A stretch of DNA of 64,000 nt from Amoebophrya sp. A120 (Eukaryota > Protista > Dinoflagellata). The stretch lies in the NCBI GenBank assembly GCA_905178155.1, contig CAJINV010000009.1:2395373-2459372 (forward strand), read 5' to 3'. The notes below the pieces were generated by a model. The model was not told where the DNA came from and ran no database searches. It was given only the letters and a program-made list of their open reading frames with translations. This document shows, in pieces, positions 9,094 through 64,000 of the stretch. Made by a program: the position numbers and the translations under genes. How positions within the stretch are numbered: the first letter of the stretch is position 1; each line of letters starts with the position of its first letter.

Positions 9094-9095
9094 TT

Positions 9096-9883: not shown

Positions 9884-12800
9884 TCACTGCACCTTCCTGG
9901 CTTGCTTCAATCGTTCCTCGAGCAGCTCGTAGTCTCCTTCCAGGTCGGTAATGGTCTTGATATTAAACTGTTTCTGGATACCCAGCATGAGCTCCTTTTC
10001 TCTCCTGTCGACCATGTTCACGGCGATACCCTTCATGCCGAAGCGTCCCGTACGACCGGTTCGGTGCAGGTAAGTTTCCCCGTTGGCTTCTCTATCGCCA
10101 ATCCTGTTGATGTTCAGTGTTTTTCTGGCTTCTCGATACTTTCTTTCTTGCCTTGGTGGCGTCAGTCTCGTTGTTCTCTTTCCTTTGCTATGAAGTTGTA
10201 CCAACTACATATCAACCACCTTTCAACGAGCCCTTTCTTTTCGTATACTCATGTCATCATCATGCAAACAAAATGCTACACTTCATCCAAAAATTGTAAT
10301 ACCTTGATCCCGCAGTCCATATGGTCGGGATTTCGTAGTTCACCACGAGCGTCACCGCCGGCACGTCGATTCCGCGCGCGAGGACGTCGGTAGCCACTAG
10401 AACTTTGGTGATGCCTATCATTTGTAAAAACGTCCCCACACCAGAGTCAAGATGGGGATTCTGCAACACAAACCTTGAAGTTTTGGGAACCACGCATGAC
10501 AAGTTGCAGGCTGTAGTGTAGTACAGGTTAGCAAGGACAGTCGCATGACAAACCCATCTCCTCATCCTGTTTACAGCATTACAAGTGCCAAAACACGATT
10601 GGAAATGCCTCTCATGTAGGTGCGCATTACAAATTTTCCTGTCATTGCAAATCTGCATGACAACTCTGGGGTGGGGACGTTTTTGCTCAGGATAATGCCC
10701 CGCCGAAACTCGTCCATGACTTTGTCGCGGTGTGCGGGATCGATCTTTTCTGGCCCGGTCTGTATCAAATGTAAAAGTGTCTGGGTCTGGAAGGATACAA
10801 CTTGTGATGCTACTTTTGGAATCTACAGAAAAACTGTATTGCATGAACAGCAAAAGAGGTGTGATTTGTGCTACGCGGACAGGGCATTTCTCATGCTGTA
10901 TGAGCGTCAGAAAGCCCTCGCAAAATCTCTGATGCTATGGCATGCATCACAGACCTCATGGATCATGCAAAATCTGCATGACAAACTCCTGCATTCTTCC
11001 AGACCCAGACATTTTTGCAATCCATAGTCTGCTGCGTTCCGCAAATCAGCGACACGGCATACCCGTCCTTTCGCAATCGAACGGAAACTTCGAACCTGTT
11101 AGTAGGGACAATTGTGGGTAGTTTTGGTGCTTTATTATCCTCCCCCGATTTATTTGATCCCTGGTCTATCTTGGCATGTAGAAATTCTCTTCTGTGCGTG
11201 TGTACCTAGCAAGACCAGCACAAAGGAACAAATGGAAATCGAAATAGATGAATAATAATAAACAAAAGCATAAATCAAATATAAATAGATCGTTCTCAGT
11301 ACGCAGTTTTCCTGCTGTTCATGAAGATGATGGACTGCCCAACATTCAAGTGTGCGTATATTTCCTTCAGGGCCTGGTATTTCTCGTCGTTATTTGCACA
11401 CTGCTGGTAAAAGGAGAGAATGGTGTCAATCGCCAAGTCCTTGTTTTGCACCGTGATTTTTGCTGCGTTCGGGACGATGGCCTTCGCGAACTCTCGCACG
11501 TGATCCGGGTATCTGGTGGAGTTGTTTTCTTTTCCCATTGGAGAAGGCCGGCTTCAAAAACGCATTTTCGTGATCTACTTCGGCACGCTAGTAGATCTAG
11601 ACAATGAAACCAACACAAACAAAAATCTCAGGAGAAAACAAATTGAGTAAATACGTGGCGGAGAAGAATAAAACTTGGCAATCTGGTGAGAGCCACTTTC
11701 GGACGGACGCGACGTCGCGGCCCATTTGATTCTCTTGGTCCAACATGACGTCAGCTTCGTCAAGGATGAAAACCTTCACCCGGTCCACGTTCAATATGCG
11801 CTTCTTTGTCACGTCGTAGATCTGTAGTGAATTTTGTGTTTTCGCGAAGTAGCGACTTCTTGCTGACAAACTTGTTCATGCTCACGGGTTTGCCGGAGAA
11901 AAAATAAAAAATCACGTGGTACGACAGCTTTGCTCGGTGACATGTTTTCAACAAAAAATGCGCAACAACGCAAAAATGCGATCTGTACCCGTCCTGGTGT
12001 TCCGACTAGAATGTGTGCTTCGCATTTTCCCTTTTCGATTCTGTCTCCCTGAGGCAGCACCTTGAGGACCTTAATGCCCATGAATTTCCCGAGCTTCATG
12101 ACGACCTCCTCTGTCTGGTTCGCGAGTTCTCGTGTTGGTGCCATCACCATGGCCTGCGGATAGGTGAGCTTGGGATCTATGTTCGCAAGCATTCCCAGTG
12201 AGAAGGTTGCCGTCTTACCGCTTCCATTTGCAGCCTGCCCGATCATGTTCTTCGATTTTGGCGGGCAGATGAGTGGCAGTGCGGCGGCTTGGATCCGTGA
12301 AGGTCGAACGTAGTTCATGCCGTGGATGCCCTCCATTAATTCCCTAGAGTAGTAGAGTTGTCCAGAGTTGTTGAATTCTTTTCCTTTTTTTTCGGTAGCT
12401 TGCTGCGTAGCAGCACGGCGTGAGAGGTTGCACTACGAGGCCATGACGCTCGATCTGCGCAGTTTTCACGTAAGGAGAACCGCCAAAATATTTCATCTAA
12501 TGGAAAAAATGACAATAAGTGTGTCTTTTTACGATGAAGTAAGAAAGTACTTTGTGAGGTTTAGCGAGTCCCAGGATTCCGCAGCGAGCAAGGCCTCGCG
12601 ATAATCAGCGTCAGCCCATTCTACTTGCACTTCGGCAGCCTTTTCGGAGATCAGCCCGCCACGGATGATAGGCGGTCGACCGTCCTCGTCCAGTTGGACT
12701 GGCGGCGCTGGTGCTGGTACTCCGTTCCCGTTGGCTGCAGACGAGGAGGCGCCTTTCTGGCCCACCGGTATTACCTGCACCGGAGGTGCTGCAGCGGGTG

Positions 12801-13029
12801 CGGCTGCTGGTGCCACGGCGGGGGCGACGGCTCCCGGAATTGCTGGTGCCCCGGGCGGTCCGGCCATGACAAGTCCCTGCTGCTTCATCCACTCGGCCCA
12901 CTCCGCAGCGGTGTAGCTCTGACCCTCGGTGGCAGCGGCCGCGTTACCCGTGTTCATGGCGGCAAGCAGCAGGGAGGGATCCACATCCTCTTCCAGGCCC
13001 GGCGGCAAAGGCTGCTCGGCGTCGGTCAT
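9884..13029 (-). CDS. DBP5: DEAD-box RNA helicase DBP5/DDX19 family; exons 13029-12551, 12343-11989, 11821-11655, 11512-11303, 11095-11027, 10757-10695, 10410-10303, 10103-9884 (introner junctions ambiguous within the 5-bp TSD)
   Basis: Q motif PSRIQ, GSGKT, PTRELA, GTPGR, DEAD, SAT, ARGID, YLHRTGRTGRFG; 5 GT-AG introns plus 2 introners whose removal restores QQT|GPE and RRG|ITK. Confidence 0.9.
10416..10694. mobile_element. Introner, family B (TIR AAAAACGTCCCCAC)
   Basis: TAT...ATA, TSD atgcc/atgcc; interrupts DBP5. Confidence 0.9.
10763..11026. mobile_element. Introner, family A (TIR TGTCTGGGTCTGGAA)
   Basis: TAT...ATA, TSD gtctg/gtctg; interrupts DBP5. Confidence 0.9.
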
Positions 13030-15452: not shown

Positions 15453-15594
15453 TATGAAAGTGTCAGAATCGAAATCGACAAAATCGAAAAATTTGTGATG
15501 CATAAAATCGATACCAGTTGGGCCCTCAGTTTCCGAGTGGCGCATGACAAATTTCGGGAGCACCCAAATCCAGTCTGTCATGCTGTTTGGGCAA
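15453..15594. mobile_element. Introner family D, truncated by the assembly gap
   Basis: Starts TATGAAAGTGTCAGAATCGAAATC, closely similar to 23025-23160; N at 15595. Confidence 0.8.
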
Positions 15595-15595
15595 N

Positions 15596-16761
15596 ACAAG
15601 GGATGGGGCACACGCACCGCGCGCGCGAAAAAAATTTTTGTCGGGCCCCCGTGCAAGAAACTGCAGGGGTGAAGGTGTGGCGCGCACGCAAAAAAATTTT
15701 GTGTGGCACCCACGCAGGAAACAAACTGCAAGGCCGCTGACGCGAAGCAGAGAAGGGTGCGGCGTGTGTGCGAAAGATTTCTGTCGGGTACCCGTTCAGG
15801 CAACTGCAAGGGCGCTGGCGCGAAGCAGCGAAGGGTGGAGCGCGCGCCGCGCGCGCGAAAGAAATTTTTATTTGTCGGCCGGCCGCCCATGCAAGAATGA
15901 AAGCGCAAGGGCCTCGGCGCGGCGCAACGCAGTGTGGAACGCGCGCGGCACGCGCGCGACTAAAATTTTTGCCGTGCGCACGTGAAAAAAAGCGCAAAGC
16001 CGTCGGCGCGAAACAACGACGAGGAACGGAGCACGTGCTGCGCGCGGGCGGAGGCAATTTTGAAGGTCCGCGAACGAAGGCGCAGGGCCGTCGGTGCGAA
16101 ACAACGACGGGCAGAGCGTGAGCGGGTGCGGCGCGCGCGCGAAATAAAAAAAGCCGTTGCGACCGCGACGGTGCAGGAATTTGAAGCGCAGCGCCGTCGG
16201 CGCAAAGAAAGAGGGGACGCAGCGCGCGCTGCTCGTGTGCGGAGCAAGGTCTTTGCTCTGCAAGGCCCGGGACTACATGCGAGTAGAAAAAGCCGGCTCT
16301 TGCTGTCGGCCATGCAAACCGCACAGCCGAACCGGCTACAAAGGGACCCACAGGCAGGGGCACGCGCGCAACGCGAAAAGTTCTTTGCTTTTTTGCTAAC
16401 CATTGGCGACTGGGTCGCGCGCAAAAGTAGAAGCTGTCGTGTTCTGTTCAGTTTCAAAGACGCAAACACCGAACAAAAGAAATGCCGCCAGCACCGCGCC
16501 GCCGGGAGCCAATCAAGAGGAGAGCTGCTGCGCGCCTGCGCGCGTTTTGTATGTAAGGACGGAGCGAAGCCTGGGCTGATGCTGCAGCAAGGCTGGCGCC
16601 ACACGGGCGGGGCAGGCGGGCGAAGGGCAGGACCAAAAAGTCTTCCGCCCCCGGTGCGCAGGCGGGCCGGGGGCTCTTGGTGGCAACGGTCAGCGCGCAC
16701 GTAGTTTGGCCCACGCTCATCCCTTCATCTTGCACGGGCGCCAGCGCTCGTCTTGGTCTAC
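15596..16761 (+). mobile_element. GC-rich repetitive element, possibly Helitron-like, 5' end in the gap
   Basis: Degenerate subrepeats (gcgcgcgaaaaaaatttt, gggccgtcggcgcgaaacaacgacg); terminal hairpin acgggcg-ccag-cgctcgt followed by cttggtctac. Confidence 0.4.
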
Positions 16762-16899
16762 TATTTCTTTCTATGCTAATATGAGCATGAAGCTCGACGC
16801 CAGTTCATAATCTAACTTTTATGGGGGGGAATCTCCTTGAGGGAGAATCTCCTTAGGCCGTCGGTAGAATTTCCTTGAGATTTTTTTTTTTCCAACATA

Positions 16900-16980
16900 A
16901 AGTCTCTGTCATGCAAAAAAAATCTATGATGCTGTTCCTGCAAAAAAGTTACACTTACACAGTTTTTTTCTTCTTGGATA
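16900..16980. mobile_element. Right end of a family G introner (left end not found)
   Basis: ...aaagttacacttacacagttttttt...cttggATA matches the right ends of 26090-26298 and 30887-31105. Confidence 0.65.
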
Positions 16981-19900
16981 GCCCCGACCACGGCCGACGC
17001 CACTGCGTTCTGCTTCTGCCCGCCTTCCGGCCGCTTGAAATATAAAAGCTGCAACGCTTATGAATTGCAAAAGTATCGCACTCGTAAAAAAGCATGACAA
17101 ATTATTCCCTCAGCATGAGAAGTAAAGTTTGTAATGCGGATTTACCTTGAGAAAAATGCATGATTGCAATTACTACGACTACGATACTTTTGCACAGGAT
17201 AACGCTAGCTGGTGCACCAAAAGCCGGACGATGAACTCGACGGGGCCCAAAATCGGACTATGGGTTGCAGAAGTGTCTGGGTCTGCAAGATTGCGGCCAG
17301 GCTACTTGTCAAGAATATTTTGAATGACCCATGATCTCTGTGATGCATGCCCTAGCATCACAGATTTTTAGAGGCCATTGCGATGCCTCTACAGCCTGAG
17401 AAATGCCCTCTCCGCGTAGCACGAACTGGGGTCCTCTTGCTGCTGGTCATGCATTGCAAATTTTTTTAGCATCCAGAGGCAGCATCACAAGTTTAGAATC
17501 TTCCAGACCCAGACTTTTTTGCATTTGATACGGACAGATCTTCGTCAACACAAAGAAAACGTAAGGAAACACATAATCCACCACGGTGCCATATGGCGCT
17601 CTCAAGCGTCACATTCGCAACTGTTACATGGATTTGTAATGCAAGAACAACAACAGTGAGAGTGGCAACAGTGATTGCAGCTTTCGCATCACAGCTTTTC
17701 CACAGATCATCATGCTGTTTTGCCATGCTAAGCACCTTGATCAAGTGGAGGCTAATGGCAATTTTGCATCACGAATTCATGTAACGTTTGAGAATGTAAC
17801 ATCAGTTGAGAACGCCATATGCCAAGCACCACCTCCGCGACTGTACGAACGGAGGCGAACAGGCTCCGGGCCCCGACGGTTTTCACGTAGTCCATGAAGC
17901 CCTTTGTCTTTCGGGAGATAAAGTCGGTGACGCGGCTTATGCTGTGCAAAAGCATCGTACTAGTACTAGACCATTACGCCGGCGTCCAGGACGCCGGCGA
18001 TAGGTGGCCTAGTAAATCTAAACGCAACTACCAAGCAAACTAACAACAAAGAGGAAAAAACTTGGAGAGCGTTGGGCTGAAGACTCGTCGAAAGAGTCCC
18101 GCTCTTGGGAATCTGCTAGCGGAAACGCGGCCACTATTCGAAGCCCTTCGGGCCGCGGTCTTAGCATGACAAAACGGGCTCCGCTTGCTACTGAAGCCCT
18201 TCACTAGTAGCGGCCCACATTAGTGGGCGCGCGCGCCTTCGCTTCCGGGGCTTCTTCCTAACTAGCTCGCCCCCGCCCGGCCCGGCCGTCGGCCCTGGCC
18301 CGATCCCCCGCTTTTGGGCTTCCTACCCTGATGTCTAGAGAAGGCCTCTCCCCCAGATAAGTAGGTCCCCGGACCCAGATGTCTCCCCGGATATCTCCCC
18401 AGATATTTCCCGCATCCCCAGATATCTCCCCAGATATGTCCCCAGATACCTCCCCAGATATCTCCCCAGATAGATCCCCAGATAGATCCCCAGATATATC
18501 CCCAGATATATCCCCAGATATATCCCCAGATATATCCCCAGATATATCCCCAGATATGCCCCCAGATATATCCCCAGATATCTCCCCAGATATATCCCCA
18601 GATACGGGAAGGGCCGCCCTCTTCATTTTGCATGCCGAGCTTCATCGCCCCCCCTACCCCCCCAAACGGGGCCGGTCTTTGGGGGTAGCCAGAATAGACC
18701 TGCTAAAAACCGGCCGGACCGCCCGCGGGCGTGGAGGACACACCGGCAGGATGTTTGTTCCCCGCGATGCCTTTTTTTTTCTTACGCGCGCTCCCTTAGA
18801 AGCTTCCTTTAAGGGCTCCCTTAAGGGAAGTTTCTAAATTCCCTTTTTTCTAGAATTCATTTTCTAAGGGCGCCCCTATAATCTATAAGGGCGAAAAATC
18901 CGAGTAAAAATTCTATAGTGTTATTTTATAAATCGCATGACAAATTGCCTCAGCATGAGAACCAAAATTTGTATATGCAGATTTAACTTCAGAAAGAAAT
19001 TTGTAACGCATGAATGCGATTAGTACAACGAGTACGATATTACTTTTGCACAGGATACGGCTTGTGGCGACACGAAACTTTTCGAGCGCGTCGTTGAAGT
19101 TTCGCTGCATGTGGCCAATGGGATTGCGAAACCATGAGAATGGGCCGCGGCTCTTGACGACAATTTCTCCACTTCCAGTAGTCCGCGATATCCTGTGTAA
19201 AAACGTCCCCACACCAGAGTCAAGATGGGGAATCTGCTAGACAAATCAGCCAGCTTTGCCTTTGCTTGTTTGGCATGACAAGTTTGTCCGCGTAGTGTGA
19301 TCCTGTTTAGCTAGTTAAGAAGCATCACAGATCTAGCATAGAATGCTGATTCTAGCATCACAAGTTCCAAAACACGAACAGAAAACGCTCTGCATAGGGC
19401 TCCGCATGAGAAACTTTTTTGGCATGCGGAATTGCATGACAACTATGGCGTGGGGACGTTTTTACTCAGAATACACGACGACCCATCTTCATCGTCTCCG
19501 GCCCGGTGCTTCAACAGTATGGAAGCGCCAGGTTATTTGAAATCGACAGAGTTGAAATAAGTAATTTGTCATGCATAAAATGGATACCAGTTGGAAGACC
19601 AAGCTCCAAGCGGAGCATGACAAATTTTCGGAGCACCGAAATCCAATTTGTCATGCTGTTTGGGCACAGATGAAGAGTGCTTTTGTCATGCTCCTTTAGC
19701 AGCTCGATCCCAAAGCCTAAATAGGCTCACAATCTGCCTCACTTGCCATCCCGGCAAGACAGGCACTTCATGCCTTGCATTTTATGCATGACAAACCATT
19801 TCAACTTTGACGATTTCAATCCTGTTCCTGACACTTCCATAAACAGTTCGGCCTCCGTACTCGCGATGACGCCGTGTTCGGTCCCGTGCCCCTCTTCCCG

Positions 19901-22900
19901 AGCGGCTTTTATTGCGAGGAAAAATCCCCCCTCCCCATATTGAAAAGGTATGTTTCCGAAAATTTGCGCTGCTGATTTGTGGCCACAGATCAGGTTTGTC
20001 TTGCAAGAAGACAAGTGCAGAGGCATCCGCCCAATTGTGGAAGCGATTTGGCATGCTGTTGGTCCTAGAGGGTAGCCGTTTGCATCAATGCTGAGCAACT
20101 AGACCTGCGCGCTCCCACCTAGGCTGCCAGACATCTGGCCGCAGTGCCTTACTGCAAGACAGGTCGGATTTGTGTACGCAAATCAGCATCAGAAATTTCC
20201 ATTTTGATATGGGGAGGGGGGATTTTGATTTTTCATTTTGATAGCTTTGCTTGCAGCTCCTGCGATCGTCTCTGCGATCGCACTAGCATAACGGCGCGGC
20301 GTGGACTTGGACGTGGTCCCTTCAGCGGCATCGGATGTTCTATGCATTGCAAAAGTATCGTACTCGTATAAATGCATTACAAATTCCCTCAGCATGAGAA
20401 ATGAAATTTGTCATGCGGATTTACCTTAGGAAAAAAATTTGTATTGCATGACTGCAATTACTACGAGTACGACACTTTTGCACAGGATATGTTCCCCTTC
20501 CGAACAACGCACTGATCCTGCCCCAAGCACTTGTCCAGGTCTTCACTATCCTCGATATGCAATACAAATTTCCTGTACATGTACAAAATGCATCACAAAT
20601 GTCACCAACAACTTGGAGCATGCCACTTGCCATGCTGAATAGAATTTGAGGAAAGTTTTGTCATGCAGAAATCGCATTTGTACATGTACAGGAAATTTAC
20701 TGTGGATACTCGACTTGAGCCATGCGAGTGTCTGATGAGGCAGAGTCATCAATACGCTGCCGAGCAACCTCCGGAGCTTTTCTGCTCCAGACTTCATGAA
20801 CAATTTAAATTTCTGAGCCACAGTGGGCAAGTGGTCATAGAGTACGCGTTGTATGGATGTGTCAGAGTTGAAATCGACAAAGTTGAAATAATTTGTCATG
20901 CATAAAATGGATGCCAGTTGGAACCCAGTTTCCAAGTGGCGCATGACAAATTTGGGTAGAGCCGAAATCCAGTTTGTCATGCTGTTTAGGCAAAGAAGAG
21001 CGATTTTCTCATGCTACTTCAGCAGCTCGAGCTGTAACCGCAAACAGGCTTACAATCGGCCTCACTGGCCTGCTCTGCAACACACGTGCCTCGGGTCATG
21101 CATTTTATGCATTACAGATTACCAGCCATGCTCCGGCTAACGCCGGAGCGCAAGGCTGTTGTGCTGGGGTTTGACTATTTGCGGATCGGGCCGCGACACA
21201 AAAGCTTTCTTTGGGCACAGCGTGAAGGACCGAGGAAACTTTGAGCGCCATTTTGCGCGAGGTCAACTCGCAGGGCCTCCTGCGCGCTTCCCGCGCCTTT
21301 AGGCGCTATGCGCAGGGGGCAGCTGCAGTAAACCTTGCGGGCGAAGAGAAAGAGATGCCGCCCCGGCGTAGGTGCGTGCCGAAAGAATCAGACAGAGGCC
21401 GGCGCTGCTCTTTGTTTATCACCACCCCGCACCCGCCCACCTGATTCCCCGGGGAAATAAAACTGTCGGCGCGAGAGGGTGGCGCAAGACGGTGGCGCGA
21501 GAGGGTGGCGCGAGAGGGTTCGGGCTTTTGCATGAAAGGGCCGCAAAAAAATAAGCCCTGTGCCGGGCGGATTCGGGTTTTTCTACCCCTCTCGCAGACC
21601 CTCTTTTTCACCTCTTCCGAGAGGTGTTGCTAATAATCCGGCTATACTCGCCGGTGGAGGTCTACAAAGGTGGCCGAGAGGTGGCCCAGAGGGTGCGCGA
21701 GAGGTCTCCCCTTATTCGCGCAACCTCTCGGCACCTCTGCCCACCTCTCGCTTGCCCTCTTTTTTACCTCTCGGCCACCTCCGTGCCGCTTAGCGGCCCT
21801 AAAGGGTGACCGGTTCGGCGGGCTATACTCGCGCCCCCTCTCGGCCACCCTCTCGAATTACCTCCCGCGCCACCTCTCCACCTCTGTCGACCTCTTTTTT
21901 ACCTCTTTTGACCTCTTTTTGACCTCCCTGCCACCTCTCGTTTACCCTCTCTAGACCAATATTTTCGCATGAATATAATAGATAGTAATTTCAACTTTGA
22001 CGATTTCAAACCTGACGCTTCCATACGTTGCAGCAGTTCGGTAATCTTGTCTTGGAATTGGACACCGAGGACCACCACCACGGTTTCCACCAAATCGTTG
22101 GTCACCCGTCCAGTTAGCCAAGGGGGCAGGTGAAAGAGATGCAACACGTTGAGCAAGAGGTCGGAAATATCAAATGTAAAAATGTCTGGGTCTGGAAGAA
22201 TACGCAACTTGTAATGCAGCTTTTCCATGAAGACCCATGAGATCTGGAATGCAGGACCTAGCATGACAGATTCTGTGAGATCTATGTATATCATGTTGCT
22301 TATTCTGCATGAGAAATTCCCTCTCACCCGGGTCAAAAATGGACGGCTTTTGGTACTCTTGCAACAGAGATTCCTGTATGATTCAGATGTAGCATGACAA
22401 GTTGCTATGTTCCAGACCCAGACATTTTTGCAATTCATAGGAAACGATCCCCGCCAATTTGAACAGCATGGCATAGAACACCGCGCTGGAAAGTATGGAA
22501 GCGTCAGGTCTAAAATCGTCAAAGTTGAAATAATTTGTAATGCATAAAATGCGATACAAAAAGTGACTCTATTGCAGAGGACCCACGGGAGGCAGATTAT
22601 AGTCCTGGCAAGGGTCAAAAGTTGGACTGCTAAGTAGCATGACAGAAGGCAGCTCTTTTGCCCTAAACCGCATGACAGACTCTTTTCCAGGACCGGGAAA
22701 ATTTGTCATGCACCGACTACAAACTGTAGGTCTAACTGCCATCCGTTTTATGCATGACAAACTACTTCAACTTTGACGATTTCAAACCTGACACATCCAT
22801 AGAAAACAGGCGGGCCATATGCGTAGACAGCCACCCGAGCACATCCAAACCCGTTTCCCACGTCTTGTCAATCGCTTTCCTCAACGTGGATTCCTCCCCG

Positions 22901-25900
22901 ACAAGAAAGTCCCAGACCTTCTCTTTGATGCGTCCAAGAAAAGGCTTCTTTACTTTTTCCGGGACCTCCTCCGGGACTTCGGGCGCCAAAGCCTTTATGA
23001 ACATTTCTCCTTCTGCCTTCTCTTTATGGAAGTGTCAGAATCGAAATTCACAAAATCGAAAAATTTGTGATGCACAAACTCGATGTCAGTTGGAGCCTCA
23101 GTTTCCAAGTGGCGCATGACAAATTTCGGGAGCACCCAAATCCAGTCTGTCATGCTGTTTGCGCAAAGAAGGCTGCTCCTGTCAAGCCACTTTTGCAGCA
23201 GTTCCATACCCCTAAACAGGCTCACAATCGGCCTCATTTGCCTGCCCCGCAATACAGGCCTTGCGTGCCATACATTTTACGCATTACAAGTTTTTCGATT
23301 TTGTTGATTTGGATCCTGACACTCGCATACTCTTCTTGATCATGTTTGACACCGTTCTTGAAGACTTCTTCTGCCAGTTTCGCCACCTGCTTGTCCATTC
23401 CCTGCCAAAGTTCCACCGCTTCCACTTATTGAGAGGAAAAATCCCCCCCTCCCCATATCGAAAAAGTATCTTTCCGAAAATTTGCGTTGCTGATTTGAGC
23501 CTTAGTTCCCCATGATATCCGTAGGCCAGACGTGCGTTGCTGATTTGAGGTCACAAATCATATTTGTGTTGCAAGAATGAAGACAAGGGTAGAAGCTTCC
23601 GCCCCATTATGGAAGCGATTTGTCATGCTGTTGGGCCTAAAGGTCAGCCGTTTGCAATGCTGAACAACTAGACCCATACGCCCCTAGCTAGCCTGGGGAT
23701 CTGGTCGCAGTGCCTTCCTGCAATACAAATCTGATTTGTGTACGCAACTCCAGCATCACAGATTTCCTTTTTGATATGGGGAGGGGGGATTTTTCCTTTT
23801 CATACCACTTCCAGGGTATCCACTTTCTCGTTTCCTTCTACGTCGGCGAGCACATGTTGCAGGGCCGCTTCGCTCTTCTCATCGTCCGTCTGCTCGTGCT
23901 CGTCTTTATTACCCGAGTCGTTCTGGTTCTGCTGTATGCCGTTGATGTGGTCGTTCTGTGGTGGAAGTGGTAAAGCTGCAACTTTTGTAGAAGGTTGTGA
24001 CGTGATCGTGATGTTGTCGACTGCTGGCTGTGCAGCTTTTGGTGTTTTGTTCTCGAGGAAGTTGAAGAGCTTTTGCGAAAGGAATGTCGCGAGGCGTTTG
24101 GCCATGCTTTGCAACCCTTTGCCTAGCGTCGCCAATCCGTGTGCCACGTGGGTCACAAGCTTCTTGAGTTGCTCACCCGTGGCCTTTATGCCCCACGAGA
24201 CAAGTTTGCCGGCCTCGCCGAGCAGTTCGACAGCTTTCGAAAAAGCGCCGGAAACAAGCGCCCAGACCTGCGAGAGCGCAGACCGCACCAAGAAGGGCAC
24301 AATGGATCCCACAAGCCCTTTGCCCACGATGTTCTGAAATAACTCGCGCAAAAAAGTAAAAGGCTCCCCGTTCATGAACTTTTCGACCATTTTCTTCACG
24401 GTGCCGTGCAGGTAGTCGCCGATGGGCACCGCAACCCCTGGAACAAACCGAAACAGGGTTGCCTGCGCCGCGACGCCAAGGCTCAAACTGGCGGTCTGCG
24501 CCAAGCGGTCGGTCAGCACCCGGAACATACGCTTGAAACTCAACTCACCAAACGCCAGCTTGGCAATGAACTTCGAAAAGCTAGAGCCCGCATCCTTCAC
24601 TTTGTCTTTCAGCCAAGTCGCCTTCTTATAAAAGCCTCAGGTTGGAAATCCTCAAAGTGGAAAGAATTTGTGATGCATGAAATGCAAGGCAAAAAAGACT
24701 GCATTGCAGAGGACACAATGGAGACCGACTCTTGTCCTGCTAGGGGTGAAGAGTTGGAGTGTTGCTTAGCACGAGAGAAGGGCACCCCTTTGCCTTAACC
24801 TGCATGACAGACATGCTTGAAGGGCCCGGGAACTGTGTCATGCGCCGACTACAAACGGCGCTTCTATTGGAGTCGTTTTTTTGCATTACAAATTATTTCC
24901 ACTTTGAGGATTTCCAACCTGAGGCTTTCATACTTCTCGAGCAGGGACCGGAAGATGTTGCGCAAGTCCGGAATCTATCACATGCAAAAGTGTCTGGGTC
25001 CGGAAGATTCCAGGAGTTTGTCATGCATGTTCTGGATCACGCAACGAACTGGTCTCTAGTGCACGCAAAAGCATTACAGGTTTTGCCCAGGCCTCCTGAT
25101 GTCTATCCCGCATGAGAAATAATTCCCTATTTGCGTAGCACGAAGTGGAAAGCTTTTGGTGCCTATGCAATACAAATTTTTGCCTATTCCAGAAATTGCA
25201 TGACAAGTTCCAATTCTTCCAGACCCAGACATTTTTGCATTTGATAGAATCCGCCGCTTCACTCCTTCCCAAAAATTTTTCGCAACCCCGCCGAAGAAGG
25301 AGCTGGACTGGTACCAAGCTACAACCTCTTCGGCTTTTACTTCTCTTTTCCCAGCAGCTAGGCACTGCTGATTTATTTCCTGCTTCTTTCCATCAGGAGC
25401 TTGAGCTTCTACTGGGCACTGCAAGTCAGTTGTTGCAGCAAATGTTCCTTCTCCCTGCAACATTTTCGCCACTGCAAGCGGGATGATTTCATCGTTTTGC
25501 AGCACGTCGCTCTCGGAATTTGTGTCGTCCAAAGTTTTTTGTTGCTGTTCCTGGATGCGACGAAAGCGTTCAGCTTGGCGACGGGCTTCGGCTTCCTCCC
25601 GTTCTCGCTCTTGTTCTTCCTCGCGCCTTTTCAGGGCTAAAAGGTCGTCCCGAGCTTGCTCGTACGGTCTACCGAACGCAGCGGCAAACTCCATGTCCAT
25701 ATCCTTATGGATGTGTCAGAGTTGAAATCGACAAAGTTGAAATAATTTGTCATGCATAAAATCGATGCCAGTTGGAGCCCAGTTTTCAAGTGGCGCATGA
25801 CAAATTTCGGCGGTCCCTAAATCCAGTTTGTCATGCTGTTTAGGCAAAGAAGAGTGGTTTTCTCATGCTACTTTAGCAGCTCGAGCTGTAACCCCCAACC

Positions 25901-27309
25901 AGGCTTACAATCGGCCTCACTTGCCTGCTCTGCAACACACGCGCCTCGGGTCATGCATTTCATGCATTACAAATTATTTCAACTTTGACGATTTCAAACC
26001 TGACGCTTCCATAATCCTCCGGACTTCCGTAATCGAAGTCGTCGTCGTAGAAGGGGGACAGTCCTCGCTGCAGCGCACTGCTCTGCACTTATCCAAGAGA
26101 AAAACGTTGTTAGTGTAAATTTGTGATGCGCAACATGCAAGATGATTGCGTCTGTCATGCTTGGCATGCATTGTAGGGTCCATCACAGGGCGTTTTCACG
26201 TACTATCTGCGCATGACAGGTTTTTGCTCTCATGCCAGACAGATTTGTAATGCTGTTCCTCCAAAAAAGTTACACCTACAATGTTTTTTTCTTGGATAGC
26301 ACTTGCTCCGTTTCCAGTATCTTCCCCGAGAGTGACGTCGAGTAGACATGCGCCAGCACCTCCTGCTGCTCACTCTGATCAACCTGCTGATCATCGTCCT
26401 CGTCATAATCGTATCAAGTGTAAAAATGTCTGGGTCTGGAAGAGTGTTAAACTTGTCATGCAGGTTATTTTCCATGACCCATGAGGTCTGGTCTGGAATG
26501 CGGGACCTAGCATGACAGAGTCCGCGAGGTCTCTGTCATGCCTATCCTGCATGAGAAACTCCCTCCCAACTTGGTCGAAACTGGGCAGCTTTTGGTAGTC
26601 ATGCAACACAGATTTTTGCATGATTCGGCTTCAGCATGACAAGTTGCAATCCCAATCTTCCAGACCCAGACATTTTTACATTTGATAAATCGGCTGAGTG
26701 TCCGAGGTACAACTCCAACATCGGCCCGTTATCGTCTGCTGGTAAATCATGTAGTTCTGCCTCCTTCTCGCGTGCAAAAGACACGACTGCTCCTTCAGGG
26801 TCGACGTTCCTGGTGCCCTCAAATGGGCGAGTATACGATGCTTCGTCCTCACGGCGGAGGTTCGACGAATGCGGCTGGTCCGCGAAGATTCTACTGCGAG
26901 GTACGTCTTGCGTCTGCAGGAACGCACGGCCCCCCTGCGCATCAGATTTTTCGTTTGGCGAGGACGATAAGGATATTAACCTAGGCGTGCGCGGCTCCGC
27001 CTCCGGCTCCGGCTCGTCGGAGTCGTCGGAGGAAATTGTGTTCTCAATACTACTAATCATCCCAGCATCTGCCTCGGGTGAGTCGTTTTCAGTCTCCTGA
27101 CCCTCCTTCCTCCGCAGTTCCATCAGCTCTGCAGCAACGAATAAGCCGCAGCCGGAGTAGAGCGTTGTGTTGGAGGCCGAGGTGCTGGTAATCGTGGTAA
27201 AAATAGTACCGGCATTATTAACACCGCCTCCCAGGAGCTCGAGCGCCCTGGCCAAGAAGAGATGAAGTACGCCACATGTAGAAGCAGTACGACCCAGCAG
27301 CAACAACAT
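16981..27309 (-). CDS. Large hypothetical protein split by 19 introners; 3' end unresolved
   Basis: Exons stay in frame at the junctions translated after removing element + one TSD (e.g. HSAD|YDEDDDQQ, SPED|MDMEF, EVVLG|TVVDYVFP, KICP|ILGPVEF); start codon tentative. Confidence 0.7.
17059..17201. mobile_element. Introner family C (TIR TGCAAAAGTATCG)
   Basis: TAT...ATA, TSD acgct. Confidence 0.9.
17259..17530. mobile_element. Introner family A
   Basis: TAT...ATA, TSD cggac. Confidence 0.9.
17592..17819. mobile_element. Introner family H (TIR TATGGCGTTCTCAA)
   Basis: TAT...ATA, TSD tgcca. Confidence 0.9.
17966..18928 (-). mobile_element. Non-autonomous Helitron-like element (family 1)
   Basis: Minus-strand 3' end: palindrome cgccggcgtcc-t-ggacgccggcg then taatggtCTAG; inserted between A and T with no TSD; 5' end TA rather than TC. 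Confidence 0.7.
18380..18604. repeat. 12-bp minisatellite (CCCCAGATATAT)n inside the Helitron-like element
   Basis: About 18 tandem degenerate copies. Confidence 0.95.
19189..19473. mobile_element. Introner family B
   Basis: TAT...ATA, TSD cgcga/cacga. Confidence 0.85.
19518..19841. mobile_element. Introner family D (TIR TATGGAAGYGTCAG..GAAATCG)
   Basis: TAT...ATA, TSD aacag. Confidence 0.9.
19910..20243. mobile_element. Introner family I (TIR AAAAATCCCCCCTCCCCATAT)
   Basis: TAT...ATA, TSD gcttt. Confidence 0.9.
20341..20489. mobile_element. Introner family C
   Basis: TAT...ATA, TSD tgttc. Confidence 0.9.
20556..20708. mobile_element. Introner family E (TIR AAATTTCCYGTACATGTACA)
   Basis: TAT...ATA, TSD ctcga. 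Confidence 0.9.
20852..22025. mobile_element. Introner family D carrying a nested Helitron-like insertion
   Basis: TAT...ATA, TSD cgttg; flanks match the uninterrupted copy 25706-26013. Confidence 0.9.
21122..21988 (-). mobile_element. Non-autonomous Helitron-like element (family 2, copy 1)
   Basis: Minus strand starts TTACTATCTATTATATTCATGCG and ends hairpin GCTCCGGC-gtta-GCCGGAGC + ATGGCTGG (CTRR); A|T target, no TSD; homologous to 44088-45023. Confidence 0.8.
22168..22439. mobile_element. Introner family A
   Basis: TAT...ATA, TSD ggaaa. Confidence 0.9.
22494..22801. mobile_element. Introner family D
   Basis: TAT...ATA, TSD gaaag/gaaaa. Confidence 0.85.
23025..23329. mobile_element. Introner family D
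   Basis: TAT...ATA, TSD ctctt. Confidence 0.9.
23427..23804. mobile_element. Introner family I
   Basis: TAT...ATA, TSD ccact. Confidence 0.9.
24627..24932. mobile_element. Introner, D-related subfamily (TIR AAAGCCTCAGGTTGGAAATCCTCAAAGTGGAAA)
   Basis: TAT...ATA, TSD cttct, TIR of ~37 bp. Confidence 0.9.
24976..25246. mobile_element. Introner family A
   Basis: TAT...ATA, TSD gaatc. Confidence 0.9.
25706..26013. mobile_element. Introner family D
   Basis: TAT...ATA, TSD atcct. Confidence 0.9.
26090..26298. mobile_element. Introner family G (TIR TATCCAAGA.AAAAA..TTGT..GTGTAA)
   Basis: TAT...ATA, TSD gcact. Confidence 0.9.
26412..26687. mobile_element. Introner family A
   Basis: TAT...ATA, TSD aatcg. 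Confidence 0.9.
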
Positions 27310-29409: not shown

Positions 29410-29646
29410 TATGAGTGCGCACAACTCCCCCTCGTCCCCCTCATCTTCTGTCATACAAAACATCAAATCCACCCTTTGATGCCTCTTGGCACCTCTTGCA
29501 TGACAGGTTCTGGTAGATCAAACAGCACTACAATACTGGGTAAACTTGTCATGGAAAACCCGCATTCTTGCCGACGCTCGGGCTCGTATTGCTGCTCATG
29601 TGTCAATACAAATGAGGGCCGGGAGGATGAGTTGTGCACTTTCATA
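29410..29646. mobile_element. Introner family J (TIR GTGCACAACTCCCC), downstream of a stop codon (probable 3' UTR)
   Basis: TAT...ATA, TSD ttgtc. Confidence 0.85.
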
Positions 29647-29779
29647 TTGTCCTTTTCTTCTTGAAGTAGCACTAGTAAGCAAAGACGAAGCTGCCAACAT
29701 GTCCGGAGATGACCAGCTTCATAAGTGGTTTGTTTGTTTGTTGAGGATAGAGTCAGCCCATGATCTCAAAAAATATTTT

Positions 29780-36916: not shown

Positions 36917-37807
36917 TTGCTTTTCTTGCAGAAGAAAATAAATGCAGGTAAATAAAGGTAACTTAAATTTTTTCTTCAATCTACTGTATTGACTTCTTGA
37001 AAGATTGTTGAAGAGTAGAACTCCATTCAATCGCTTGATGAAAAATACATACGTGCAGTAACCAACACTAAGTGCTTCCTACTTGTACTTGAAAGTGTTA
37101 TTTTTCTTGGGATAAAGTAGAAAACTGCGCCGATCTCTACTCTGTGCCGGAATTATAGTCGAGTGGAGGTAGTAGTGGAAAAAGTAGAGCACAGAGTCCC
37201 CTTCACGGCGGCGGGTCACTAGGCTCTAAAAATCTTCAAGACCGACAACAATCATCTCTAGTTTTTTAGCGCCGCAAACTGCGAGTTTATGACCGAGAGT
37301 TTTAATAGTTCTGGCAGAGGAAAATAAAGCAGCAGGACAGATAAGCAGGACGGCTGCTTCTTCGATAAGTACACACGGCGGAGTCGCACCAGCAGCTACT
37401 GCGCCTTCAACCGACGCACTTCTTCGAAAGCGCAGAATCACAGAGAAGCAGAGCAGTAGTGGACATCATCAGACCACTAGGCCAAGAAACCGAGCTATTT
37501 CAACATCAACCGCACGTCACGTGCGATCTTGGGAAAGGCATTATCTATTATCCGATGTAAAATTGGATACAGAATGCTTATTGTCATCTTCCACTGCACC
37601 GATGAATATTCAGCTGCAACGTCGTGGTCGTATGAACCGAGTTCCTCGCCTGAGTGTCAAAAAAGAAGCACCTCCCATCTTGACCACGAGCGCAAAGACC
37701 GACCGGGCGCGGGCACTGTATTACATGCAAGTGCATCCTGATACTCATTTGAATGCTAACTTGGTAGGTGGAAGAGCCAACTTCAACTGGCTTTTGTTGT
37801 TGGTCGA

Positions 37808-39844: not shown

Positions 39845-39928
39845 AGATGTGGAAGAAGAGCAGTCCAGCTTTTGAGCACCACATGAAGATTCATTGCTTT
39901 ACTTTCGCCATTCATCTGCTGAAGATCT
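39845..39928. repeat. ~85-bp dispersed duplicate, copy 2
   Basis: Matches 37808-37889. Confidence 0.85.
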
Positions 39929-56211: not shown

Positions 56212-59200
56212 TTACATCAAGCCCACACCAAACTTCCCCATGGTCCAGCTGTGTAGATCGTGCCAAAACAGCGCCAGAAACCGATCGCTTAAACTGCTGG
56301 AATTCTTCATCGCAAATTTGTCTGCGTCCGACAAATGGACACCGAAATTGTTCTTGGAATGAAAGTCGATTCGTTCAAAGTTCGGGATCGGGTCGGTGGT
56401 CAGGTAGCTCTGTATGCAATACAAATTTTCCGTACATGTACAAGAATCACGAATTTATACCAATTTGAAGCGTAAAACTTGTCATGCTAGAGTAGGGTCG
56501 AAGCCTATTTTTGTCATGCAGAGACCGCATGTGTACGTGTACGGGAAATTTACTCTGGATACTCTGGAAAATCATCTTCCCGACGTAGTCCTCGTTCACG
56601 TTCACACTGGGTTATGCAACACAAATTTTCCGCACAAAAACATGTACTACGAAACGCATCGCAAGGTCTTGCAACAACTTAGATGAAGAGCACACGACAA
56701 CTTGTCATGCTGCATAGGCTTGAAGAAAAGTTTTGCCATGTAGAAACTGCATATAATTATAACGCGTTCAACTGTTGAATCAAAAAAAGTTTTCAAATTT
56801 TTTTTCAAGTGTAGAAGTGTGTTGCCGCGCAACCTCGACCGGCCTTGGAATGTTTTGCCTGAAAAGAGTCGTGCTCTTTTTCTGTCGCCCCTGCCGTCTC
56901 GGTTTCTAGTTGCCGCTTGCGTGCTCATTGCGAGTACGCGCCGGCCATCGCAGCGCAAGGGCCAAAAAAATCGCCTGTCGGGAAGTGGCTTCGGGGGGCA
57001 ACAGCGCAAGAGCTCCGCAAAAGCCCTCCAGCAAGGCATGCCACGACCCCAGCTGGATGCTGTCTGACACGAGGCGAGTGGCGCCGCCGCAGCCGTGTGG
57101 CCTTAGAAGCCCAGACCCCGCTCGAAGGCATGGCTCTGCTCCCTTCCTATTAGACCCGGATCATTTGAGCTCCTGCCCTGGCACGGGGGCAGAGCCTGGA
57201 TCGCAGCGGGATGGGAAGACAAGCCGTCAGAGGCATTGCCAAATTACCAGACGCGAAGCCGACCATAAGACTGCCGTCACCCGCGCCGCGGATAGAGGAG
57301 TGCGTCGAAACATGGCGCAAAAGCCTTGCTGCCCCACTGGCGGCGGAGGAGCCAGGATGGGGATCCACAAGGCCAGCCCCGGCATGCCTGTTGCCCTGAG
57401 GCAATTCGACCTGCATTGCTTTGGATTTGTGCTGCTTCGGGACCTCCCCGGGGGACCTCCCCGAGGGACCTCCTAAATCCGACCAAAAGTGGAATGGTTC
57501 GGAAAATCTTCGCCCGATGGTATGAGACCTCCTCGTAGAGGTCCCTTGAGGACCTCCCTTGGGGACCTCCGGGAACGCCTCGAAAGGCCAGACTTCGGCT
57601 CTCACCTTTCCGCAGGACAAGGTCAGCGCCCCCCACTCCTGGAGCAAAGCGAACGGCCAACCCCGGAGCCCCGACCTGAAGGCGGGCGCACGGGTTTCTG
57701 CCAACACTGTGGCGGACTTGTAGGGCCCAAGCTGCGCATGGTGGAAACGCCACGCAGCCTGCCGCCCGAAAATAACAGTCGCGAAATCTGAGCGAAGGGC
57801 ACACAAGCTTCGCCCAAAAACGCCATCCCGCTGGCCAGCGCCTGTTCCTTCATTGCAACAATGGCCGCGCGCCATGAGGTTCACTAAGAAAACCAACATG
57901 TCTTCCGCGACAGGCGAGCTTCAGAGGCCGTGGCAAATTGGTGGACAAGACAAGACGGGCGTCTAGCTAGTCTCCGATATGATAGCTTTCCGCGCCCGCT
58001 TCACCGTCATGCTTCCGGAGCCGCGCAAATTGCCCCAAAGGCTACGCGACTCCGTGCGGCGGCCTTTTTACCCGGGCCCGTGCAGCACAACTGTGCGACC
58101 GGTCGAGGGCTCGACTCGGCGCCCGACTCTAGCATAAGTCAGTTTGAATGCTCAAGATCTGCGCGCTGTGTGCGGATTCTTTGCTCGCCGATTCTGGTGG
58201 GCTTCTGCGCGCGCGCTTTCCGATACTTAAAGAAAAATTTGAAAATATTTTTTGATTTAACAGTTGATCGCGTTATAATAATCAGCCGTTGTGCGTTGTG
58301 TACGGAAAATTTCTGTGGATATGGGCCACCGTTTCACGTTCAACACGTAGGTTCTCGGGACCAAGTCCGTCGTTCTGGGACAGAGCTTCAACATCTCCTT
58401 CTGGACGCCGTGAATCGCGGTTGCGTCCTCTCGCAGAAACGACGGATCCGTGTTGGCGATCTCCTGGTCCAATGTTTTCGAAAACATCGCCCGGGCCTTC
58501 CCGAGCATGGAGGTTTTGCTGAGCACCAACTGCTATCAACTGCAAATATGTCTGGGTCTGGAAGAGTTGGGGCTTGTCATGCACATTTTGCATGACCCGC
58601 GAGGTCTGTGATGCTGGTGCTAGCATGACAGAATTTTTGAAAGCTTCTTGATGCTAATTACACATGAGAAATGCCCTCTCTGCGTGCCAAGAGCTGACTC
58701 CTCTTGCTGCTCATGCAATACAGACATTTTTAGAATCCGCAGACAGCATTACAAGTTCCACTCTTCCAGACCCAGACATTTTTGCATTTGATAACTGCTT
58801 CTGGTTTCGCATGTTGTACACGGCGTCCCACAGGACCTGCCCGGCGTATCGCAAGAACAAACTGCTTCACTTTGAACTTGTGATGCATAGAACGGAACGC
58901 AAATGTGTTTGTCTTGCTGCACATGCAAGACATTGGTTTTTTAGCTGTGTTTTCCCTTAGGAAGCACGCATGCCAAGTTTTCTTTGTCATGTGCAACAAA
59001 CTTGTGATGCAGATCTTGCAAACTCGTCACAGTGAAACATTTTTTTTTGTGGGATACGGCGGTCGTGTCCTCTAAAGTGACGTGCAAATACGGGTTGGGT
59101 TTGTTCGCGAAACTGTCTCCAAATCCGGTCGTGTCCGAAATCTCCAAATCTGCCAACTTCAACCAGGGATGCGGCGGCTCCTTCGCCAAATCCTTCGGCA

Positions 59201-61925: not shown

Positions 61926-64000
61926 TTAGATTCCACAGTACTCGTAAACGTGACTCCAAGTCAAATCGGCTTGTTCAGTCGCTTCATCCTGCAACATGAA
62001 AAGCGAGTACGGCTGGTACATTACTGTGGTCAGAATGAAGAGAAAGTAAAAGCAAGTAGTAACTTGCATAAGCGTGAAAACCTCCGGAAACAACCGCCAC
62101 GAAGCCCCTGCTACTTGCTTCGGCTCGGAATCCGGTAAAAAAATTCCCACGAACCTCGGCAACAACACCTCCGCTTGCTCGTCATTAAACACCGCAAATT
62201 TCCAAGTAATAACAGCCCACTCGACGATGTCGTTTACGAAGAAAATAATCGAGGCAACCTATCGTGCGGAAAAATCCCCCCTCCCCCTATTCAAAAGAAA
62301 ATTTCTGATGCGCGGTTTGTGTAGTAGTACTTACACAAGTCGGTTAGTACCACTAGAATACTAAGGGATCCAGCTGCGGCTTCGATTGCAGGCAGTTGCC
62401 TTCCCCCCACGCCAGACTTGGGACGACAGTCTGACAGATTCCGACTCTCTCCCTTTCTAGCATGACGCATTGAAGTAGATTTGTTTTTGTATTCACATAT
62501 CATGTTAAAGCTACACAAATCTCGCTTTGCATACGGGGAGGGGTGATTTTTCATTTTGATGCAATCAGTCCGAACATAATTTCCTCGTTCGTTTGCGGAA
62601 ACCCGGGGAACAGTGACACGTTGTTCGCCAGTCCAATGAGAGGGACGAAAATCAGCGTCAACGACGTCATCATCCGGCAGTGCGCGCGAATCTGGTACCG
62701 TTTGAAGTTTTCCTGGCGGTAAAAATCAATGCAGTGTTTGAAAGCCTTCAGCTCTGCCGCAGAAACCGGCTCCACTGCTTCTGTTTTTGCTACTTTGTCT
62801 TCCTGCCCAAGTAAAAACTTCACTAGCGTCCGGGTCGTCGCCGCTGCCTGGCGCGCGCCAGTAGAGACGTCCTGCCGGAGACTGCTGGTCTTCAACACCG
62901 TGTGGCTTTTCGACCCGACCGGCATGCTCAGGGCCTTCTCGACTGACATTACAGCTACGCCGGCAGAATTGCAGGTGCCGGCTAGCTATCGACTGCACAC
63001 ATGTCTGATTCTGGAAATTTGCAACGCTTGTCATGCCCGTTTTCCATACTTAGCCCACGAGGTGTAGCAGAATTTAGGACCTAGTATGACAGATTTTGTG
63101 AGATAGAGATCCCACGCATGCCTATCCTGCACGAGAAACTCCCTCTGAACTTGGTCAAAAGTGGACAACTTTTGGTAGGTAATCACGCAACACAACACCT
63201 GTAAGCTTTTGCACGATCCCGACTTAGCATCAAAGATTGCAGCTTTCCAGACTCCGACACATTTGCAATACGTACTAGCACCCTACTGTTTTCGCAGCTG
63301 CGCGCTTCGCTTCCGCTTGTTCGTCCGTCCATTGGCGTATTAACTTGCTTCTCCTCTGCAGCTTCTTTCGCAAAAACAGTTTGCTTCTCCGTTTCCATTG
63401 CGAGCAAGTTGGGAAAAAAGGCTGCTTCTTCATTGCCGCGCTCGGATCCGCCGGCGTTCGGCGGCTCTTCTGGTACGACTTGCACTGCTCCGTAAGAGAC
63501 ATCTGCCACCTCTTGGTTGTACAAATCCCGAAATACTTTTTTCGGTACGTTTCGGATCTTCAGCCGGATGTTCGAAAAGTGCAGGGCCAAAGTTTTCTTG
63601 ATGCCGCTAGTACCCGAGTCCTGCTCTTTCTGTTGTCCGTCGTCAGCAGCACCAGCGCCACTATTCCTATTTTGCTCCTCTGCAAGTTGCTGCTCGAAGT
63701 CAATCTCCTCGTCAAAAGCGATGGAAAAGCGTCGATTAACAGAACTTATGCGTTGCAGGTTGTAACAAACTTTAGTAACCCAGCGCCAACTCTGCGGCAC
63801 GTGCTCTAGATCGTCGAAGTCGCAAATTTTCAACGCGAACACCAAAATCGCTTCACTTTGCCGCAAAGCGAAGTGCCAAACGTGGTAAGTCAGGTCCCGG
63901 AACAATACAAAAGCGATGGTCGCAGGAGATAAAACCAGGAAAACCCCGCGGCCCATTCCGAACCGCATCGAGTCGAACATGTAGTGGAGGACGCAGGTAA
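61926..64000 (-). CDS. Hypothetical multi-pass membrane protein, 3' part; 2 introners; 5' end outside the window
   Basis: ORF pieces 63183-63980, 62551-62949 and 61926-62192 are separated only by introners; FGLI|ASIIFF join is in frame; several hydrophobic segments. Confidence 0.7.
62260..62561. mobile_element. Introner family I (variant right end ATG)
   Basis: TAT...ATG, TSD caacc/caatc. Confidence 0.8.
62987..63274. mobile_element. Introner family A (variant right end GTA)
   Basis: TAT...GTA, TSD ctagc. Confidence 0.85.

What the first reader, a model, noticed from the sequence alone, without database searches (positions are those of the whole stretch)
10416..63274. 71 non-canonical transposon-introns from ~10 TIR families share one strict boundary rule
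Seen: elements start TAT and end ATA (8 have a one-base variant), have family-specific TIRs and are flanked by a 5-bp duplication (54 perfect, 17 with one mismatch). At the junctions translated, deleting element + exactly one TSD copy restores conserved frames such as DBP5 and the EGF cysteines, with no GT-AG requirement. Known: IR/DR-bearing non-canonical introners were reported in Amoebophrya (Farhat et al. 2021, BMC Biology); as far as I know their removal mechanism is unresolved. Inference: a dedicated excision machinery reads the TIR stem, the TAT/ATA ends and the direct repeat.
Basis: partly seen in the sequence, partly recalled or inferred. Interest (0 to 1): 0.85.

Follow-up and report, generated by a model that had tools for sequence, protein, structure and literature searches.

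The report
Transposon introns cut by a ruler
The genes here are packed with 72 small transposons that RNA data show being removed together with exactly five extra bases at every junction checked; this kind of intron is already described in the parasite Amoebophrya, and the new point is that the cuts likely fall at fixed distances from the transposon ends, probably made by a relaxed spliceosome.

Summary
Confirmed. I find 72 TAT…ATA inverted-repeat elements: 55 have a perfect 5-bp duplication, 17 have one mismatch, and 8 have a variant end. RNA-type contigs skip element+5 nt at 12 of 12 single junctions and give the exact sum over 9 more. This holds in both orientations, in a 3'UTR, and inside-out for a nested pair; DNA-type contigs run through 8 boundaries. 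An independent assembly gives 223 perfect and 36 one-mismatch 5-bp duplications among 283 elements found blind to the duplication. These match the published Amoebophrya A120 introners (Farhat 2021), so the thing itself is known. Added here: mismatched duplications fix one common cut, 1 nt before TAT and 4 nt after ATA (this rests on two junctions). The intron then starts N-T-A-Y, like local canonical introns (GTAY, 4 of 4), and ends in any dinucleotide. The direct repeat need not match, so it is probably a by-product of insertion, not a signal. Families share an internal GCATNACA motif, and a Hermes-fold transposase lies in the window, with no link shown. The enzyme is unresolved: relaxed spliceosome about 0.5, Euglena-like stem-guided cut-and-ligate about 0.3.

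The parts
10416..63274 (.). 72 TAT..ATA TIR introner elements (143-378 bp; six longer ones carry nested inserts or are themselves long), 21,094 bp in all; every host gene modelled lies on the minus strand
   Evidence: all coordinates printed
10416..10694 (.). Introner in the DBP5-like DEAD-box helicase gene, perfect 5-bp TSD
   Evidence: flanking exon hits Pfam Helicase_C 67-94; DEAD domain upstream; not covered by RNA
10763..11026 (.). Second introner in the DBP5-like gene, perfect TSD
   Evidence: not covered by RNA
9933..12350 (-). DBP5-like gene with two introners and four canonical introns whose donors read GTAT or GTAC
   Evidence: (intron ends placed by eye from frames and helicase motifs)
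16815..27564 (-). 1280-aa frame restored across 19 introners; the pair 24627-24932 and 24976-25246 is removed in RNA
29410..29646 (.). Introner in an inferred 3'UTR; RNA skips 242 = 237+5; an unspliced contig at about one tenth of the depth
29859..30359 (.). Outer introner, TSD mismatch at transcript position 5; RNA keeps the downstream copy, so at most 4 nt of the upstream copy stay
   Evidence: joint 29854->30361
29879..30120 (.). Nested inner introner, removed (+5) while the outer one is still present
   Evidence: joint 29872->30120 in 3 of 4 runs
30887..31105 (.). Introner with TSD mismatch at position 3; upstream copy kept
   Evidence: joint 30881->31106
32131..32292 (.). Introner with TSD mismatch at position 4; upstream copy kept, so at least 4 nt stay
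   Evidence: joint 32125->32293 in 3 of 4 runs
29783..37078 (-). 1067-aa frame across 16 introners; one 3194-nt RNA contig spans 15 of them at exactly the predicted length
38453..38614 (.). Introner with TSD mismatch at position 3; RNA skips 167 = 162+5, upstream copy kept
   Evidence: record 18
40408..45307 (-). EGF-repeat and Kelch-like gene with 9 introners; cysteine spacing is best at +5
56613..58321 (.). Introner not in my first list of 71, holding the nested 1520-bp TAT..ATA element 56758-58277
15453..16972 (.). Two partial introners either side of the single N (assembly gap at about 15594); not counted
3977..5536 (-). hAT/Hermes-fold DDE transposase core; part of a longer protein with pieces at 2444-3973 and 6067-6744; candidate mobiliser only, no link shown

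Best explanation
These are non-autonomous TIR DNA transposons that duplicate 5 bp on insertion and are removed from the transcript as element plus 5 nt, with cuts that likely fall 1 nt before TAT and 4 nt after ATA, probably made by a relaxed U2-type spliceosome. Shown: the ends, the 5-bp TSD, removal of element+5 in RNA-type contigs, removal in both orientations, in a UTR and inside-out for a nested pair. Inferred from two decisive junctions: one register, exon..N1N2N3N4 | N5-TAT ... ATA-N1N2N3N4 | N5..exon. Because 1+4 equals the TSD length, every insertion is seamless without the repeat being read. Inferred: the palindromic ends present a 5' N-U-A-Y in either orientation, which lines up with this genome's canonical GUAY donor at +2 to +4. 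The acceptor would be measured from ATA, helped by the TIR bringing the ends together, instead of being read as AG. Inferred: one transposase family moves all families by binding a shared internal GCATNACA motif.
For: RNA: 11 of 11 element joints in 29300-33700 skip element+5; 38453 likewise; contig lengths are exact over 2 and 7 further elements. The only register common to all 12 resolved joints is 4. Family 1 members in both orientations are spliced (30683, 33159 versus 32131). DNA-type contigs cross 8 element boundaries unbroken and lack the 29404->29647 joint. In the deduced register 71 of 72 introns start NT and 3' dinucleotides are scattered. All 9 top A120 non-canonical end pairs in Farhat's Table S4 start with NT, and all 9 A25 pairs start TT. 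Four of four DBP5 canonical donors are GTAY. In 202 oriented elements the 5' end reads TAY in nearly all; variants at TIR positions 1-2 number 3 at the 5' end against 11 at the 3' end. Farhat found 83 of 89 spliceosomal proteins and U2, U4, U5, U6 but no U1 in A120. Precedent: Fritillaria removes TIR/TSD non-canonical introns with a modified spliceosome. The motif is in 63 of 66 window and 128 of 130 outside elements with no strand bias.
Against: No lariat, branch point or protein was observed. G at +1 is barely enriched (0.35 against 0.30 background) and AG at the 3' end is 20 against 13 expected. TAY may be conserved only because the transposase needs it. The 5'-versus-3' asymmetry at TIR position 4 was 1:11 in the window but only 4:9 (p=0.27) in the independent loci. 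The register assumes that all elements share one cut, and rests on one junction for each bound; one of them is a nested outer element. TSD position 5 is rarely mismatched (2 of 52; 2 against 11 at the phase-matched position 2, p=0.02), which a pure ruler does not explain. All RNA evidence is assembled contigs from 2 samples of 1 study, labelled RNA by guess, without strand. The canonical donors were placed by eye, n=4.
Confidence: 0.5

Rival explanations
1. A spliceosome-independent endonuclease and ligase recognises the TIR stem and cuts at the same fixed offsets, as proposed for Euglena nonconventional introns, releasing circles or linear RNA.
For: No AG or branch consensus; independence of orientation; a predicted stem with mean pairing probability 0.7-0.87 at TIR positions 9-22. 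Euglena uses fixed spacers between a paired motif and the cuts (abstract and discussion), and its introns leave as circles (review).
Against: No enrichment of G-U over A-C in transcript orientation; TIR positions 4-8 are often unpaired; TAT/ATA itself pairs with probability only 0.54-0.60; the 5' end matches the canonical GTAY donor.
Confidence: 0.3
2. The machinery aligns the two direct repeats and removes one copy.
For: Perfect 5-bp repeats in 55 of 72 and 223 of 283 elements; a deficit of mismatches at position 5.
Against: Exact splicing at four mismatched junctions; elements with a decayed repeat keep the +5 frame; displaced repeats were seen only at an offset of 3 nt (4 cases) and no perfect 6-, 7- or 9-bp duplication occurs among 283, as expected if a fixed ruler sets the frame.
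Confidence: 0.1
3. The elements are cut out of DNA in one life stage (as ciliate IESs are), and the RNA merely copies the edited template.
For: They are DNA transposons, and the DNA-type run may come from a different stage than the RNA-type runs.
Against: DNA-type contigs cross 8 boundaries unbroken and lack the joint; retained and half-processed forms sit beside the joined forms. Contigs drop rare variants, so this is not an exclusion.
Confidence: 0.05
4. Cryptic GT-AG sites near the ends are used by an ordinary spliceosome.
For: 5 of 72 elements offer G[TCA]..AG in some register on the transcribed strand.
Against: 6 of 72 do so on the antisense strand, so this is chance; RNA joints show element+5 with non-canonical ends.
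Confidence: 0.02

Closest known systems
Amoebophrya sp. A120 introner elements (Farhat et al. 2021, PMC7789003)
   Same: IR motif of TAT, seven variable bases, then AAA; direct repeats at the borders with a 5-bp example (Fig. S19 legend); about 240 nt; RNA-seq-validated non-canonical introns; co-oriented gene blocks. The window is probably A120 or a close relative; this is inferred from the signature, not shown.
   Different: The paper describes DRs of 3-5 nt varying in length and position, and leaves the border position unknown. Here the TSD is uniformly 5 bp and one register fits. I did not see the shared internal motif in its main text. It reports no transposase in A120, whereas a Hermes-fold gene lies in this window.
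Euglena nonconventional introns (Nomura 2025, PMC12501133)
   Same: MITE-like origin, paired ends, fixed spacers between motif and cut, no GT-AG.
   Different: The Euglena signature is N3CDG...CH'GN5-6|R; here N-TAT...ATA-N4 with no purine preference. Circles are shown in Euglena and untested here.
Fritillaria borealis non-canonical introns (via review PMC11282704 and abstract of PMC13326754)
   Same: TIR/TSD transposon introns removed despite non-canonical ends.
   Different: Preferred ends AG-AC/AG-AT and a TAC target; U1 retained and U2AF duplicated. Here there is no end preference beyond N-T, and U1 was not found in Amoebophrya.
Micromonas and Aureococcus introners (via review PMC11282704)
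   Same: MITE-like TIR elements with a TSD that become introns.
   Different: They carry or co-opt GT/GC and AG; these do not.
IS3EU/GingerRoot and hAT5 DNA transposons (PMC10045372, PMC12730594)
   Same: IS3EU ends TA..TA (TAYGG in fungi); hAT5 makes 5-bp TSDs.
   Different: IS3EU TSDs are usually 6 bp (0 of 283 here). No autonomous copy ties these elements to either group.

Membership tests
Amoebophrya A120 introner elements | IR starting TAT, 7 variable nt, then an A run | tested here: met
   TAT in 64 of 72 at both ends; A in 54-63 of 72 at 5'-end positions 11-14
Amoebophrya A120 introner elements | Direct repeat of 3-5 nt at the borders | tested here: met
   5 bp, perfect in 55 of 72
Amoebophrya A120 introner elements | Removed from RNA with non-canonical ends | tested here: met
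   21 of 72 elements covered by RNA-type contigs, none contradicting
Amoebophrya A120 introner elements | Repeated families across the genome | tested here: met
   (71-95% identity to outside copies)
Amoebophrya A120 introner elements | Window lies in the A120 assembly | not testable with these tools
   no genome held; organism name coded
U2 spliceosomal intron | GT/GC donor and AG acceptor | tested here: not met
   0 of 72 GT-AG in the deduced register
U2 spliceosomal intron | Branch point and lariat | not testable with these tools
   no raw reads of this strain; the GCATNACA motif is not a required branch site (spliced 29410, 33159, 38453 have only antisense copies)
Euglena-type nonconventional intron | N3CDG..CH'GN5-6|R signature | tested here: not met
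   ends are N-TAT..ATA-N4; first exon base unbiased
Euglena-type nonconventional intron | Release as circular RNA | not testable with these tools
   needs sequencing of excised introns
IS3EU/GingerRoot | TA..TA termini | tested here: met
IS3EU/GingerRoot | 6-bp TSD | tested here: not met
   0 of 283 perfect 6-bp
hAT5 | 5-bp TSD | tested here: met
hAT5 | Autonomous hAT transposase within matching ends | tested here: inconclusive
   Hermes-fold ORF present but no TAT..ATA ends or motif round it within bases 1-10400; one end could lie outside the window

The most novel reading that the evidence does not exclude
Amoebophrya splices tens of thousands of introns with a machine that needs neither G at +1, nor AG, nor a branch consensus. 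It cuts 1 nt and 4 nt outside palindromic transposon ends, so that any 5-bp-duplicating TAT..ATA transposon becomes a perfect intron in either orientation: a U1-less ruler spliceosome or a second, spliceosome-independent splicing system.
Probability: 0.55. Interest if true: 0.85.

Novelty: already known. Interest (0 to 1): 0.58.

Why it matters
How more than 60% of Amoebophrya introns are removed without GT-AG is an open question. A defined register (N-TAY ... ATA-NNNN) turns it into specific tests: where to look for a branch or circle junction, which bases to mutate, and which U6/U5 contacts to examine. It also explains how a genome tolerates a transposon every few hundred coding bases: cut offsets that sum to the TSD length make every insertion silent. 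The shared internal motif suggests that many of the published families may be one mobilisable system.

Tried and rejected
The run search listed no holder on record as RNA. G-U wobble test: no signal. GCATNACA as a branch point: rejected. Complementarity of TSD positions 5 and 1: 52 of 202, chance level. A dynamic-programming search for canonical introns was too noisy to use. Codon-phase bias (70:39:24 in outside loci, not significant in the window) is reproduced by a symmetric target profile, but that test is circular. One of 8 genes could not be scored because my interval cut through an element. Two 22-aa DBP5 exon pieces gave no Pfam hit; a DBP5 homolog search timed out. The transposase ORF had no Pfam, PDB-sequence or word-index hit; the protein atlas did not answer. 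Earlier scan findings: none.
Full report
Observation. A search for inverted pairs that demanded neither a terminal motif nor a duplication found that perfect flanking repeats peak at 5 bp and that 42 of 68 such cases are TAT..ATA. Rule-based scans and curation gave 71 elements (8 of 78 candidates dropped as shuffle-level, one added), plus an outer element at 56613-58321. Of the 72, 55 have a perfect TSD, 17 have one mismatch and 8 have a variant end. They cover 21,094 bp and fall into 10 multi-member groups and 7 singletons at 66-95% identity. Removing element+5 restores minus-strand frames of 1280, 1067, 589 and 582 aa. EGF cysteine spacing prefers +5 to +2 or +8. The DBP5-like gene reads through both of its introners, but no RNA was laid there.

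RNA. The run search gave contigs guessed to be RNA (X3-X5, X8: 2 samples, 1 study) and unlabelled contigs that behave as DNA (X1). In 29300-33700, 11 of 12 listed joints correspond to the 11 complete elements, and each skips element+5; the twelfth is a depth-3 joint inside an element. Element 38453 also skips +5, and contig lengths are exact over the pair 24627/24976 and over seven elements from 33659 to 35647; one 3194-nt contig matches the prediction over 15 elements. So 21 of 72 elements are covered and none disagrees. Both orientations of family 1 are removed. An element in an inferred 3'UTR is removed, with a retained form at about a tenth of the depth. The nested element 29879-30120 is removed while its host is still present. 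X1 lacks the 29404->29647 joint, and four of its eight listed contigs cross eight boundaries with 31 or more bases on each side. Contigs cannot show strand or rare variants.

Cut register. Mismatched TSDs reveal which copy survives. In transcript orientation the upstream copy is kept at position 1 (35647), position 3 (30887, 38453) and position 4 (32131), and the downstream copy at position 5 (29859). The only register shared by all 12 resolved joints keeps 4 nt of the upstream copy. The mismatched genomic bases at 30360 and 32127 lie inside X1 contigs with no differences, so they are not assembly errors. The intron is then N-TAT...ATA-NNNN: 71 of 72 start NT, none is GT-AG, and acceptors are scattered. 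This rests on one junction per bound and assumes a common register. Two independent hints agree. All nine top A120 non-canonical end pairs in Farhat's Table S4 start NT and all nine A25 pairs start TT, although aligner habits may contribute. The four canonical DBP5 donors read GTAT or GTAC (placed by eye).

Independent elements. A pattern scan returned 155 stretches (154 stored, 409 kb) from one public assembly with the same families and no overlap with the window's exons. Detection blind to the TSD and to the first four bases found 283 elements: 256 TAT..ATA; after offset correction 223 perfect and 36 one-mismatch 5-bp TSDs, and 24 with more; no perfect 6-, 7- or 9-bp and one 8-bp duplication. 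The same detector recovered 53 of my window elements among 55 calls. Of 245 elements in loci of 1500 bases or more, 133 could be oriented by a codon model trained on window genes; all 38 loci with two or more calls were unanimous. Pooled with 69 window elements, TSD mismatches by transcript position were 21, 11, 7, 11 and 2; half were synonymous, and three downstream variants would be stops. So positions 1-4 of the downstream copy drift freely, while position 5 is constrained for a reason I cannot give. Two elements with three mismatches keep the +5 frame, and displaced repeats occur only at an offset of three. No G-U bias was found. The position-4 end asymmetry (1:11 in the window) was weaker outside (4:9, p=0.27).

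Mobility. GCAT[G/C/T]ACA occurs in 63 of 66 window and 128 of 130 outside elements, equally on both strands, often 32-46 bases from an end. Outside catalogued elements there are five hits, four of them in the gap-broken partial copies. I infer transposase-binding subterminal repeats shared across families. Target sites show a symmetric preference for G at -7 and C at +7. The ORF at 3977-5536 has 17 distant relatives and conserved D156, CxxH, RW and E470. Its model (pLDDT 74.7) returns Hermes transposase as the top ten matches (best E 3e-5, TM about 0.4). It has no introner ends or motif nearby, so it is a candidate only.

Mechanism. Shown: DNA-transposon anatomy and seamless removal in RNA-type contigs. 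Inferred: fixed offsets of 1 and 4 nt, which sum to the TSD length. Least certain: the enzyme. I favour a relaxed U2-type spliceosome (0.5), because the 5' end aligns with the local donor, the spliceosome lacks only U1 among the major snRNAs in A120 and Fritillaria gives a precedent. A stem-guided nuclease and ligase as proposed for Euglena is the main rival (0.3).

What is known. Farhat 2021 (PMC7789003; I read the abstract, sections 10-12 and 16, passages, supplement legends and Table S4/S5/S7 rows; figures not visible) already reports the TAT motif, IRs, DRs with a 5-bp example and RNA-seq support, and states that DRs vary and that borders are unknown. [quoted passage not shown] Gozashti 2025 (PMC12130899; passages, 22 of 58 A120 supplement rows; files 13-14 not searched) lists most of these families as TIR DNA of unknown superfamily, with TSD calls of 2-5 and mixed splice models. 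Also seen: passages of PMC11282704, PMC10045372 and PMC12730594; abstract and discussion of PMC12501133; abstract and three passages of PMC13326754. The original Huff, Henriet, Roy and Guminska papers were not read. Four searches naming Amoebophrya showed no paper stating a fixed register or the shared motif; subscription journals and bioRxiv supplements are not covered.

Verdict. Real, and an already known kind of element. The register, the dispensable repeat and the shared motif are refinements that make an open mechanism testable. Interest 0.58.

Noticed in passing
window 2444-6744 (-): Multi-piece gene whose middle ORF (3977-5536) folds like the Hermes hAT transposase with D/CxxH/RW/E conserved; relatives are 1200-2200 aa with no significant Pfam hit. 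Farhat reported no transposase in A120.
   Followed up: partly
window about 21120-21990 and 44080-45030; L020 about 356-1208: A roughly 900-bp repeat without TAT/ATA ends (87-92% identity over about 550 bp) that was seen only inside introners, which seem to act as safe landing sites; class unknown.
   Followed up: partly
window about 17975-18930: A different insert of about 950 bp with a 12-bp tandem array (18374-18604) inside introner 17938-19057.
   Followed up: no
window 56758-58277: 1520-bp TAT..ATA element with a perfect 5-bp TSD, its own TIR and no GCATNACA motif, nested in another introner; possibly a second TAT-ended system.
   Followed up: partly
L076 3329-3608: Introner with identical TIRs at both ends and a perfect 8-bp duplication, the usual hAT length; a ruler cut would add one codon in frame.
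   Followed up: partly
window 51880-56400: GC-rich (about 60%) introner-free stretch with internally repeated segments and no clear gene; perhaps another mobile element.
   Followed up: no
window 20556, 31196, 49035, 50375, 56413, 56613: All six members of one family lie in the same orientation to transcription, whereas other families occur both ways.
   Followed up: no
window 9121-9271 and 1439-1623: 22-23-bp tandem repeats and a 185-bp imperfect palindrome flanking the transposase region.
   Followed up: no
window 14241-15449 (-): Aldo-keto reductase exon of about 400 codons free of introners (Pfam E 2e-40), next to the assembly gap.
   Followed up: no
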